Shown: piece after piece, positions 46,926 through 56,344 of the stretch
How positions within the stretch are numbered: the first letter of the stretch is position 1
How the letters are laid out: every line of letters starts with the position of its first letter
Source: Eledone cirrhosa
Lineage: Eukaryota
Length of the DNA stretch: 64,000 bases
Reading direction: 5' to 3'
Assembly: GCA_964016885.1 (NCBI GenBank)
Contig: OZ024755.1
Coordinates: 33,046,001 to 33,110,000, forward strand
Notes under the pieces: generated by a model
The model's input: the letters and a program-made list of their open reading frames with translations, nothing else
Told to the model about the DNA's origin: nothing
Databases searched by the model: none
Program-made: the position numbers and the translations under genes

Positions 46926-47122
46926 TTCCAATCAGAAATTGCCTGGAAAATGTATTTCTGCAGTGGAATATGACAATAATAGCAACAACAGCAATAAAAA
47001 CATGTTTTTAAACATATTGCTTCAAATACCAGGAGAGAGAGAGCCGAGCTGGATTTAGTACAAAGGAAGGCCTGTGTTAGGTAACCTTCCAGCCTTTAAC
47101 CCATTACCATTTACATTACTAT

Positions 47123-48424
47123 TAGAGTAATGTAAATGTTATGTGAGATATTATGTAAGGTAAAGCCTTTACTGTGACAATACAATAGTATATATAGAGT
47201 AATGTAAATGTTATGTGAGATATTATGTAAGGTAAAGCCTTTACTGTGACAATACAATAGTATATATAGAGTAATGTAAATGTTATGTGAGATATTATGT
47301 AAGGTAAAGCCTTTACTGTGACAATACAATAGTATATATAGAGTAATGTAAATGTTATGTGAGATATTATGTAAGGTAAAGCCTTTACTGTGACAATACA
47401 ATAGTATATATAGAGTAATGTAAATGTTATGTGAGGTATTATGTAAGGTAAAGCCTTTACTGTGACAATACAATAGTATATATAGAGTAATGTAAATGTT
47501 ATGTGAGGTATTATGTAAGGTAAAGCCTTTACTGTGACAATACAATAGTATATATAGAGTAATGTAAATGTTATGTGAGATATTATGTAAGGTAAAGCCT
47601 TTACTGTGACAATACAATAGTATATATAGAGTAATGTAAATGTTATGTGAGATATTATGTAAGGTAAAGCCTTTACTGTGACAATACAATAGTATATATA
47701 GAGTAATGTAAATGTTATGTGAGGTATTATGTAAGGTAAAGCCTTTACTGTGACAATACAATAGTATATATAGAGTAATGTAAATGTTATGTGAGGTATT
47801 ATGTAAGGTAAAGCCTTTACTGTGACAATACAATAGTATATATAGAGTAATGTAAATGTTATGTGAGATATTATGTAAGGTAAAGCCTTTACTGTGACAA
47901 TACAATAGTATATATAGAGTAATGTAAATGTTATGTGAGATATTATGTAAGGTAAAGCCTTTACTGTGACAATACAATAGTATATATAGAGTAATGTAAA
48001 TGTTATGTGAGGTATTATGTAAGGTAAAGCCTTTACTGTGACAATACAATAGTATATATAGAGTAATGTAAATGTTATGTGAGATATTATGTAAGGTAAA
48101 GCCTTTACTGTGACAATACAATAGTATATATAGAGTAATGTAAATGTTATGTGAGATATTATGTAAGGTAAAGCCTTTACTGTGACAATACAATAGTATA
48201 TATAGAGTAATGTAAATGTTATGTGAGATATTATGTAAGGTAAAGCCTTTACTGTGAAAATACAATAGTATATATAGAGTAATGTAAATGTTATGTGAGA
48301 TATTATGTAAGGTAAAGCCTTTACTGTGACAATACAATAGTATATATAGAGTAATGTAAATGTTATGTGAGATATTATGTAAGGTAAAGCCTTTACCATG
48401 AACATACAATAGTATATATAGAGT
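47123..48424. repeat. 72-bp satellite, left arm (about 18 highly homogeneous units), derived from the family P MITE internal unit
   Basis: (gagtaatgtaaatgttatgtgagatattatgtaaggtaaagcctttactgtgacaatacaatagtatatata)n. Reverse complement of the unit at 4356-5000. Confidence 0.97.
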
Positions 48425-48661
48425 GGTTTCTTTATTTGCCACTAGGGCACAAAAGGTAGGGACAGATACAAGGGGGGAAGTTTACATATAATTAACGAGT
48501 ACAAAAATATAACAATGAAATAACAACAACAAACGAAGTCCTCAATAGGGAGGGGGCATTAACATGGGTCGCACACACCCCGGAAAAAATGTGTAACCCT
48601 TCTCCTCAGGAGCACAAAGAGTAGGTGCTTCCCTCGTCTCCGCTTTTTCCTCTTCTTTCAC

Positions 48662-53842: not shown

Positions 53843-54053
53843 TTCTATTAGTTTGCCGTAATAAATTTTTAACTGGAAAATTCGCCCCAAAAAGGGGCGA
53901 AAATAAATAAACTCAAAGTTTGACGACCAAGGCAAGGGGTTAACGTATATTACAGTATAAAAAAATTAATCAAAACTCACTTTTTGAGTAAGTAAATCCG
54001 ACTCGGTAGCCGAGCTTGTTCACACACGTCAACACACGTCTCTCGTATACGAG

Positions 54054-56344
54054 ATGTTATGTGAGATATTATGTGAGGTAAAGCCTTTACTGTGACAATA
54101 CAATAGTATATATAGAGTAATGTAAATGTTATGTGAGATATTATGTAAGGTAAAGCCTTTACTGTGACAATACAATAGTATATATAGAGTAATGTAAATG
54201 TTATGTGAGATATTATGTAAGGTAAAGCCTTTACCATGAACATACAATAGTATATATAGAGTAATGTAAATGTTATGTGAGATATTATGTAAGGTAAAGC
54301 CTTTACTGTGACAATACAATAGTATATATAGAGTAATGTAAATGTTATGTGAGATATTATGTAAGGTAAAGCCTTTACCATGAACATACAATAGTATATA
54401 TAGAGTAATGTAAATGTTATGTGAGATATTATGTGAGGTAAAGCCTTTACTGTGAAAATACAATAGTAAATATAGAGTAATGTAAATGTTATGTGAGATA
54501 TTATGTAAGGTAAAGCCTTTACCATGAACATACAATAGTATATATAGAGTAATGTAAATGTTATGCGAGATATTATGTAAGGTAAAGCCTTTACTGTGAA
54601 AATACAATAGTATATATAGAGTAATGTAAATGTTATGTGAGATATTATGTAAGGTAAAGCCTTTACCATGAACATACAATAGTATATATAGAGTAATGTA
54701 AATGTTATGTGAGATATTATGTGAGGTAAAGCCTTTACTGTGACAATACAATAGTATATATAGAGTAATGTAAATGTTATGTGAGATATTATGTAAGGTA
54801 AAGCCTTTACTGTGAAAATACAATAGTATATATAGAGTAATGGAAATGTTATGTGAGATATTATGTGAGGTAAAGCCTTTACTGTGACAATACAATAGTA
54901 TATATAGAGTAATGTAAATGTTATGCGAGATATTATGTAAGGTAAAGCCTTTACTGTGAAAATACAATAGTAAATATAGAGTAATGTAAATGTTATGTGA
55001 GATATTATGTGAGATAAAGACTTTACTGTGAAAATACAATAGTAAACAGAGTAATGTAAATGTTATGTGAGATATTATGTAAGGTAAAGCCTTTACTGTG
55101 AAAATACAATAGTAAACAGAGTAATGTAAATGTTATGTGAGATATTATGTAAGGTAAAGCCTTTACTGTGAAAATACAATAGTATATATAGAGTAATGTA
55201 AATGTTATGTGAGATATTATGTAAGGTAAAGCCTTTACTGTGAAAATACAATAGTATATATAGAGTAATGTAAATGTTATGTGAGATATTATGTGAGGTA
55301 AAGCCTTTACTGTGAAAATACAATAGTAAATATAGAGTAATGTAAATGTTATGTAAGATATTATGTAAGGTAAAGCCTTTACTGTGAAAATACAATAGTA
55401 TATATAGAGTAATGTAAATGTTATGTGAGATATTATGTAAGGTAAAGCCTTTACTGTGAAAATACAATAGTATATATAGAGTAATGTAAATGTTATGTGA
55501 GATATTATGTGAGGTAAAGCCTTTACTGTGAAAATACAATAGTATATATACAGTAATGTAAATGTTATGCGAGATATTATGTGAGGTAAAGCCTTTAATG
55601 TGAAAATATAATAGTATATATAGAGTAATGTAAATGTTATGTGAGGTATTATGTGAGGTAAAGCCTTTACTGTGAAAATACAATAGTATATATAGAGTAA
55701 TGTAAATGTTATGTGAGATATTATGTAAGGTAAAGCCTTTACTGTGAAAATACAATAGTATATATACAGTAATGTAAATGTTATGTGAGATATTATGTGA
55801 GGTAAAGCCTTTACTGTAAAAATACAATAGTATATATAGTGTAATGTAAATATGTGAAATAATTGTGAGGTAAAGCCTTTACCATGAAAATATAATAGTA
55901 TATATAGAGTAATGTAAATGTTATGTGAGATATTATGTGAGGTAAAGCCTTTACTGTGAAAATACAATAGTATATATAGAGTAATGTAAATGTTATGCGA
56001 GATATTATGTGAGGTAAAGCCTTTACTGTGAAAATACAATAGTATATATAGAGTAATGTAAATGTTATGTGAGATATTATGTGATGTAAAGCCTTTACTG
56101 TGAAAATATAATAGTATATATAGAGTAATGTAAATGTTATGTGAGGTATTATGTGAGGTAAAGCCTTTACTGTGAAAATACAATAGTATATATAGAGTAA
56201 TGTAAATGTTATGTGAGATATTATGTGAGGTAAAGCCTTTACTGTGAAAATGCAATAGTATATATAGAGTAATATAAATGTTATGTGAGATATTATGTGA
56301 GGTAAAGCCTTAATGTGAAAATACAATAGTAAATATAGAGTAAT
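54054..56344. repeat. 72-bp satellite, right arm (about 32 units, more variable)
   Basis: Same unit and orientation as 47123-48424. Confidence 0.97.

What the first reader, a model, noticed from the sequence alone, without database searches (positions are those of the whole stretch)
47096..56344. Tx1-like retrotransposon inside a satellite derived from a TTAA MITE: a candidate site-specific LINE/MITE system
Seen: a full-length two-ORF Tx1/L1-like element splits a roughly 50-unit 72-bp array. That unit is the internal repeat of a TTAA-flanked MITE found at least 8 times in this window with 1, 2 or about 9 units. The last left-arm unit carries the ccatgaacat variant otherwise found in the junction-proximal right arm, so one array was interrupted. 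Known: many Tx1-clade elements are target-specific, and Xenopus Tx1L inserts into the internal tandem repeat of the TTAA-duplicating non-autonomous element Tx1D. Inference: this may be an independent invertebrate version of that nested system, with MITE-seeded satellites acting as dispersed safe targets. A single insertion cannot prove specificity.
Basis: partly seen in the sequence, partly recalled or inferred. Interest (0 to 1): 0.8.

Follow-up and report, generated by a model that had tools for sequence, protein, structure and literature searches.

The report
Retrotransposon targeting another transposon's repeat
A young jumping-gene family of a probable octopus has most of its copies ending at one exact letter of a 72-letter repeat that comes from another transposon, which likely reflects targeted insertion of a kind already known from frogs and crocodiles, though here without the usual tail and duplication marks.

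Summary
Confirmed. A 5,629-bp two-ORF Tx1-type LINE (48425-54053, minus strand) splits a 50-unit 72-bp array whose unit is the internal repeat of a TTAA MITE. The refuting test failed. In deep run X5, contigs running from the element's 3' end into the unit at the same base hold depth 2,053 against 2,318-2,487 for the element (83-89%); chance is about 1e-5. A diverged subfamily (18 raw reads, possibly one locus) and another organism show the same junction, and two 5'UTR types coexist, which argues against one amplified composite. 5' flanks were seen in only three cases. Unlike U2-inserted relatives (15-bp duplication, A-rich tail), this junction has no poly(A), no visible duplication and lacks 7 bp. 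AATAAA lies 6 nt from the junction, so the RNA likely ends inside a copy of the target and primes by pairing (inferred). Corrections: the array is not inside an intact MITE, only 1 of 8 MITE copies has TTAA at both ends, and this copy's endonuclease has a 21-bp deletion. Tx1 targeting of DNA transposons is known (Xenopus, crocodilians). The scan reported what appears to be this system before on other DNA (e1-8671301).

The parts
47096..47120 (-). TTAA plus a fold-back copy of the MITE right end; arms 47105-47120 / 47126-47141, 94% complementary; forms the left edge of the array
47129..48424 (+). Left arm: 18 units of 72 bp, 99% alike; last unit (48353-48424) carries the CCATGAACAT variant
48425..54053 (-). 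Tx1-type LINE, 5,629 bp, no poly(A), no visible target duplication
48425..48661 (-). 3'UTR; AATAAA at 48436-48431, 6 nt before the junction; tail shared with other families stops at 48427; the last two bases (CC, 48426-48425) lie beyond it
48662..52078 (-). ORF2, 1138 aa: APE endonuclease, reverse transcriptase, zf-RVT; open frame
51749..51750 (-). Site of a 21-bp in-frame deletion in the endonuclease of this copy (residue ~110, where relatives have a conserved YAP-type motif); contigs of X1, X2 and X4 carry the 21 bases
   Evidence: table 4
52100..53842 (-). ORF1, 580 aa, one CCHC knuckle (weak Pfam hit), Pro/Thr/Gln-rich C-terminal half
53843..54053 (-). 5'UTR, 211 bp; a second 5'UTR type in run X4 branches at 53856 and rejoins at 54023; 14-bp palindrome 54041-54054 at the 5' junction
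   Evidence: (tables 5, 8)
54054..56344 (+). Right arm: 32 units, 94% alike; starts 7 bp into the unit; variant units R2, R4, R6, R8; no TIR at its end
4343..5145 (-). Complete MITE with 9 units, 14-bp TIR (CCC...) and TTAA at both ends
61384..61680 (+). MITE, 2 units, TTAA at left end only
22823..23082 (+). MITE, 2 units, right end lost
29585..29809 (+). MITE, 1 unit, TTAA at right end
21300..21505 (-). MITE, 1 unit, TTAA at right end (left limit approximate)
11413..11604 (+). MITE, 1 unit, both ends lost (limits approximate)
15324..15500 (+). MITE, 1 partial unit, both ends lost (limits approximate)
5556..5812 (+). MITE fragment split at another phase by ~185 bp of unrelated DNA; right TIR and TTAA kept

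Best explanation
This is one copy of a young, mostly full-length Tx1-type LINE family whose 3' ends join one exact base (GAGT^AATG) of the 72-bp internal unit of a TTAA MITE, likely because the family inserts there by site-specific target-primed reverse transcription. Shown: anatomy, the shared junction in most of the family's depth, two 5'UTR types, a diverged subfamily at the same base. Inferred: (1) the endonuclease of intact copies nicks the plus strand at or shortly before that base; (2) because AATAAA lies only 6 nt before the junction, cleavage 10-30 nt downstream (textbook value, recalled) would fall 4-24 nt inside the flanking unit, so the RNA likely ends in a short copy of the target; (3) the nicked 3' end pairs with that copy and primes past the poly(A), which gives a tail-less, invariant junction; (4) second-strand joining 7 bp further on removes AATGTAA. 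This copy lost 21 bp of its endonuclease and is likely unable to nick by itself. MITE-derived arrays multiply the target (order of 10^4 units; about 0.4% occupied).
For: Ratio 0.83-0.89; chance 0.6-2.5e-5. X11 raw reads: 18 reads (4 starts) with a replaced 51-bp 3'UTR segment and private substitutions, and 17 same-direction reads over 48410-14 where none cover 48495-48534, so most are likely the same reads. X3 (organism C): junction bins 298-1,925. X4: two 5'UTR types, depth 41.4 versus ~12, and a 3' junction contig at 36.9. X1 and X2 cross the same 5' junction without gaps; X1 crosses the 3' junction and stops matching at 48403, the variant base of the window's last unit. Shared tail ends at 48427, so the final CC is peculiar to unit-joined copies. 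ORF2 scores 270-378 bits with TX1-named and U2-inserted relatives against 172 with human L1.
Against: 5' flanks were seen in 3 cases only (window, X1, X2; X1 and X2 are one study, X2 at depth ~4). Most copies are near full length (ORF1 depth 1,959-2,244 versus 2,487 at the 3' end), as DNA-level copying would also give. Contig depth is not a copy count, and X5 may be the window's own sample. A 7-bp loss is unlike the 15-bp duplication of the U2-inserted relative L012. The X11 subfamily may be one locus. In X3 a family sharing the 28-bp tail at depth ~208,000 stops at 48427 and is almost never joined to the unit (at most 0.3% at 48415-19), and I cannot tell which X3 elements make the junction. 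X8 laid nothing. No RNA data and no nicking assay.
Confidence: 0.75

Rival explanations
1. Same targeting, other junction chemistry: the RNA carries a long (44 nt or more) target-like tail and insertion makes an ordinary duplication of up to 21 bp. In a 72-bp array a net gain of 65 bp looks like a 7-bp loss. (Shares the targeting claim with the best explanation; the figure is for this junction model.)
For: The 21 bp at 48360-48380 and 54054-54074 are identical; Tx1-clade relatives duplicate 15-16 bp (L012; SINEU-3); the last left unit differs from the other 17 left units; the flank stays unbranched for 29 bp at 74-79% depth in X5.
Against: Those 21 bp are the same in most units anyway; the variant is native to the neighbouring right units R2-R8; X1's flank lacks the variant base at 48403 (one terminal base, weak); 74-79% equals what young arrays give (0.78 for this array, 0.47 for dispersed units).
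Confidence: 0.25
2. Hitchhiking: one or a few old insertions were multiplied as DNA, by MITE transposition, segmental duplication or array amplification.
For: Copies are mostly full length and nearly identical (0-2 differences in 206-279 bp); the 5' junction is the same in window, X1 and X2; Kojima 2015 raised the same worry for SINEU-3.
Against: Two 5'UTR types and a diverged subfamily share the site; two junction contigs differ in X5; this array lacks the MITE left end and right TIR, so it could not move as a cut-and-paste unit.
Confidence: 0.12
3. The element carries a piece of the unit on its RNA as a fixed 3' transduction and inserts at unrelated sites; the shared 3' junction is then part of the element.
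Against: All 3 of 3 5' junctions seen are in the unit at the same base; here the element splits one array.
Confidence: 0.07
4. A chance insertion of an untargeted LINE into a satellite.
For: Only one copy in this window; A+T-rich target with a T^A step.
Against: 83-89% of family depth at one base against ~1e-5 expected.
Confidence: 0.01

Closest known systems
Xenopus laevis Tx1L in Tx1D (PMC4494074, PMC1950540, PMC1919474, PMC6719617: passages read; primary paper PMC85248 not held)
   Same: Two-ORF APE-type Tx1 LINE found at one site inside a non-autonomous piggyBac-type DNA transposon; Tx1L endonuclease nicks its target almost exclusively.
   Different: Invertebrate host; lineage separate from the vertebrate TX1-named proteins in my tree (Tx1L itself absent); no visible duplication here, whereas Tx1L makes one (23 bp, recalled); here the target has grown into satellites outside intact MITEs.
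Crocodilian Tx1-Mar, Tx1-9_AMi and SINEU-3 (PMC4494074, sections 14 and 15 read; supplements not available)
   Same: Tx1 families that prefer DNA transposons (Mariner-N4_AMi, Harbinger); SINEU-3 reaches 313 of 347 (90%), similar to the 83-89% here; satellites are also listed as Tx1 targets.
   Different: Other target superfamilies; SINEU has poly(A) and a 16-bp duplication; target is old (86-89%) and not tandem.
Keno-type U2-inserted elements (L010, L012, L015, L001, L002 fetched here; name from PMC4494074)
   Same: Best-scoring relatives among metagenome loci (344-378 bits); site-specific.
   Different: Target U2 snRNA; A-rich tail and 15-bp duplication in L012; separate clade.
R1Bm and SART1 (read-through or tail pairing with the target; recalled; Anzai 2005 not held; seen only as references)
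   Same: RNA 3' end helps to fix the start of reverse transcription at a repeated target.
   Different: R1 clade, rDNA and telomere targets; the likeness is a lead, not a test.
MITE-borne tandem repeats of Xenopus (Xstir; titles in the reference list of PMC6004289)
   Same: Internal repeat of a TTAA MITE amplified into tandem arrays.
   Different: T2-MITEs are linked to Kolobok; this MITE's TIR starts CCC (piggyBac-like, recalled rule).

Membership tests
APE-type two-ORF non-LTR retrotransposon (L1/Tx1 group) | ORF2 with APE endonuclease, RT and C-terminal zinc-binding domain; ORF1 upstream | tested here: met
   Pfam PF03372, PF00078, PF13966; ORF1 PF00098 weak; PDB best hit L1 ORF2p
Tx1 clade | RT closer to Tx1 elements than to L1 | tested here: met
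   270-300 bits to 4 TX1/YTX2-named or neighbouring fish proteins and 344-378 to U2-inserted elements versus 172 to human L1 (whole protein as query, best stretch 5-850)
Tx1 clade | Monophyly with reference Tx1L, Keno, Kibi, Koshi, Dewa against L1 in a tree | tested here: inconclusive
   55-row RT tree: joins the TX1-named group at 95/96 together with a long-branch group; no reference Tx1L or L1 sequence available, midpoint root
Target-specific Tx1 family (Kojima 2015) | One sequence type in more than 20% of flanks | tested here: met
   83-89% by contig depth at the 3' end in X5; criterion; depth-based, not a count of loci
Target-specific Tx1 family (Kojima 2015) | Independent insertion shown by 5'-truncated copies at the target | not testable with these tools
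   No genome held; contigs do not link truncation points to flanks
Tx1L/Tx1D-type nested system | Endonuclease nicks the target sequence in vitro | not testable with these tools
   Bench test; this copy's endonuclease is deleted
Tx1L/Tx1D-type nested system | Target site duplication at the insertion | tested here: inconclusive
   No duplication at face value (7 bp missing); a duplication of up to 21 bp could hide behind an element-borne tail
piggyBac-type non-autonomous element (MITE) | TTAA at both ends and short TIR starting CCC, no coding | tested here: met
   Copy 4343-5145: TTAA both ends, 14-bp TIR with 1 mismatch; only 1 of 8 copies complete; CCC rule recalled
piggyBac-type non-autonomous element (MITE) | Autonomous partner with the same ends; empty sites | not tested
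   No genome held
Keno | Insertion in U2 snRNA gene | tested here: not met
   No Rfam match at E<=1 in 46900-56600; separate clade

The most novel reading that the evidence does not exclude
The LINE has become dependent on its target: the MITE unit supplies the poly(A) cleavage site and downstream element for its mRNA, and the few target bases left on the RNA guide priming, so every correctly placed copy is the only kind that makes a correctly targeted transcript. Specificity would then be partly RNA-encoded and self-reinforcing, arisen in octopods independently of frogs, and re-aimable by changing the RNA tail.
Probability: 0.3. Interest if true: 0.7.

Novelty: new member of a known kind. Interest (0 to 1): 0.45.

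Why it matters
Tx1 elements that target other transposons were described in frogs and crocodilians; my searches found none for a cephalopod, and a 2026 Octopus vulgaris repeat annotation lists 13 active L1-Tx1 families (421 near-full-length insertions) without any word on targets in its main text. A young family with intact relatives and a base-exact junction gives a ready substrate to test how APE-type LINEs gain new targets, and whether the RNA tail or the endonuclease fixes the site. It does not change the principle. Most subscription papers and Repbase were not searchable, so an earlier description cannot be excluded.

Tried and rejected
No whole genome held, so copies could not be listed by locus. 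No second copy of the element or its tail in the window. A 65-bp duplication was rejected: 5 mismatches in 65 bp. No Rfam family in 46900-56600 at E<=1, so no U2, tRNA or known ribozyme target or head. Folding: 5'UTR z -2.6, 3'UTR -0.1, 3' tail -0.1, 5' end -0.6: no support for a special structure beyond a small tail hairpin. Metagenome scan gave 80 loci, 24-33% identical except L033 (44%); none close enough to test this target. Junction 24-mer: 0 matches in prokaryote genomes and viral contigs, as expected. X8 laid nothing (may be false). Of 13 runs listed, 7 were laid; X6, X7 (same sample as X5), X9, X10, X12, X13 were not. ESM Atlas gave only unnamed RT/EN clusters. Look-ups of earlier findings by sequence or relatives returned nothing. 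ORF1 comparison with L012 failed on my coordinates and was dropped. Tree rows were a hand-picked 55 of 315 proteins and 76 locus ORFs; L051 was named but not among the 55.

Full report
Observation. The sequence is as described. Between 48425 and 54053 lies a minus-strand element with ORF1 (580 aa, weak zinc knuckle) and ORF2 (1138 aa; endonuclease, RT, zf-RVT). It is flanked by 18 and 32 units of a 72-bp repeat. The CCATGAACAT variant is in 5 of 50 units, the last left one and R2, R4, R6, R8; such clustering has p = 0.0025, and a C at unit position 50 shared by 16 of 18 left units also marks 5 of the first 12 right units, so one array was most likely interrupted. The unit is the internal repeat of a MITE: seven copies share a ~150-bp left part and one more is a split fragment. 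Only 1 of 8 has TTAA at both ends, 5 at one end. The large array is not inside an intact MITE: it starts with a fold-back copy of the MITE right end and has no TIR at its right.

Host and family. The nearest named protein is from Argonauta hians (68%), so the host is probably an octopod. ORF2 scores 270-300 bits with TX1/YTX2-named and neighbouring vertebrate proteins and 344-378 with U2-associated elements against 172 with human L1 ORF2p. In a 55-row RT tree the window protein, P0002 and the Argonauta protein form a clade (100/99) inside a 12-row group (100/99) that is separate from the vertebrate TX1-named group (100/100) and from the U2-inserted group (100/96); no reference Tx1L or L1 was available and the root is arbitrary. 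This copy has an 8-column gap in the endonuclease where relatives have a conserved YAP-type motif; contigs of X1, X2 and X4 carry 21 more bases there, so the family enzyme is intact and this copy is likely defective.

Test of specificity. No genome is held, so I used public runs: 13 listed, 9 holding the element, 7 laid. In X5 the element's body has depth 1,959-2,244 in ORF1 with 0-2 differences per 206-279 bp, while diverged single contigs have 7-19; if single-copy depth is 7-30 this means roughly 80-330 copies (the tool warns that depth is no copy count). Laying 15 bp of unit plus 135 bp of 3' end: element 2,486.8 and 2,318.2; two junction contigs 1,837.1 (no difference, 29 bp of flank by its length) and 214.7; depth 2,053 at 48410-14. 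Satellite-only contigs did not contribute, since the satellite has depth 483,148. So 83-89% of the family's depth enters the unit at the same base; a random insertion would hit that base with probability 0.6-2.5e-5, and about 0.4% of units are occupied. Dropped rare branches would not raise this numerator. Kojima's criterion is 20%.

Independent insertion or one amplified locus. For independence: X4 holds two 5'UTR types (41.4 versus about 12) that share the last 31 bp, and a 3' junction contig at 36.9; with over 80% at one site both types must use it if X5 has a like mix (1-bp variants at depth 471 and 781 suggest so). X11 raw reads show a diverged element (51 bp replaced by 9, private substitutions; 18 reads, 4 starts, perhaps one locus) that by depth and read length also runs into the unit; X3, another organism, has junction depth 298-1,925. 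X1's junction contig stops matching at 48403, the variant base of the window's last unit (one terminal base). Against: copies are mostly full length; 5' flanks were seen only in the window, X1 and X2 (same base in all three; X1 and X2 are one study); X5 may be the window's own sample; X8 laid nothing. A tail-sharing family of depth ~208,000 in X3 stops at 48427 and is almost never joined to the unit, and one of depth ~104,000 in X5 has a different tail: the tail alone does not aim an element here.

Mechanism. The junction has no poly(A), no visible duplication, and lacks AATGTAA. The U2-inserted relative L012 has an A-rich tail and a 15-bp duplication; truncation of the target is also known for Tx1-clade cargo (SINEU-2). 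The tail shared with sister families ends at 48427; two further bases precede the unit. AATAAA lies 6 nt from the junction; with cleavage 10-30 nt downstream (recalled) the RNA would end 4-24 nt inside the unit, and the nicked target could pair with it and prime past the poly(A). This is inference. In a tandem array a 7-bp loss cannot be told from a 65-bp gain, so a longer tail with a hidden duplication of up to 21 bp stays open. Flank uniformity in X5 (0.74-0.79) matches young arrays (0.78) better than dispersed units (0.47; 17 units) and does not decide between target choice and RNA-templated flanks.

Comparison and novelty. Tx1L in the non-autonomous piggyBac Tx1D, crocodilian Tx1-Mar in Mariner-N4_AMi, Tx1-9_AMi in Harbinger and satellite targets are in print (PMC4494074: passages and sections 14, 15 read, supplements unavailable; PMC1950540, PMC6719617, PMC3747384: passages; PMC1919474: passages and section 14). 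PMC13282606 (part 1 of 3 read, term search of the whole text and one supplement) counts 13 active L1-Tx1 families in Octopus vulgaris and says nothing on targets; PMC8967140 (passages) notes L1-Tx1 expansion only. PMC6004289 and PMC3649969 gave reference titles and passages. Searches found no cephalopod case. Verdict: it works like Tx1L/Tx1D and is a Tx1-type element by similarity; it is a new member of a known kind with an unusual junction. Interest 0.45.

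Noticed in passing
window 47096-47141: The fold-back that forms the array's left edge turns within about 8 bases of the same GAGT^AATG step at which the LINE sits; a nick there may have seeded the hairpin (speculation).
   Followed up: partly
window 5556-5812: A MITE fragment split at another phase of the unit (after GGTAAA) by about 185 bp of unrelated DNA.
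   Followed up: no
window 40-244 (minus strand): Two MITE left ends in tandem with TTAA and no 72-bp unit.
   Followed up: no
window 48427-48492, runs X3, X5, X11: Very abundant families share the Tx1 3' tail: depth ~208,000 over 48430-54 in X3, ~104,000 over 48460-90 in X5 with a variant tail; likely SINEs or sister LINEs.
   Followed up: partly
window 54041-54054: 14-bp perfect palindrome at the 5' junction, inside the 31 bp shared by both 5'UTR types.
   Followed up: partly
L012 783-832 and 5838-5947; L001, L002, L010, L015: Keno-type elements inserted in U2 snRNA genes in marine-type metagenome contigs; L012 shows both junctions with a 15-bp duplication.
   Followed up: partly
L016 5495-5618: A Tx1-like element whose poly(A) joins a 5S rRNA gene.
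   Followed up: no
window 7638-8898, 26655-27564, 33882-36086, 16620-17172: Other young tandem arrays: 55 bp x 23, 48 bp x 19, 42 bp x 52, 130 bp x 4.
   Followed up: no
P0003-P0088: A large unnamed sister group (38-55% identity, clusters of up to 732 members on long ENA contigs); its targets could not be read.
   Followed up: no
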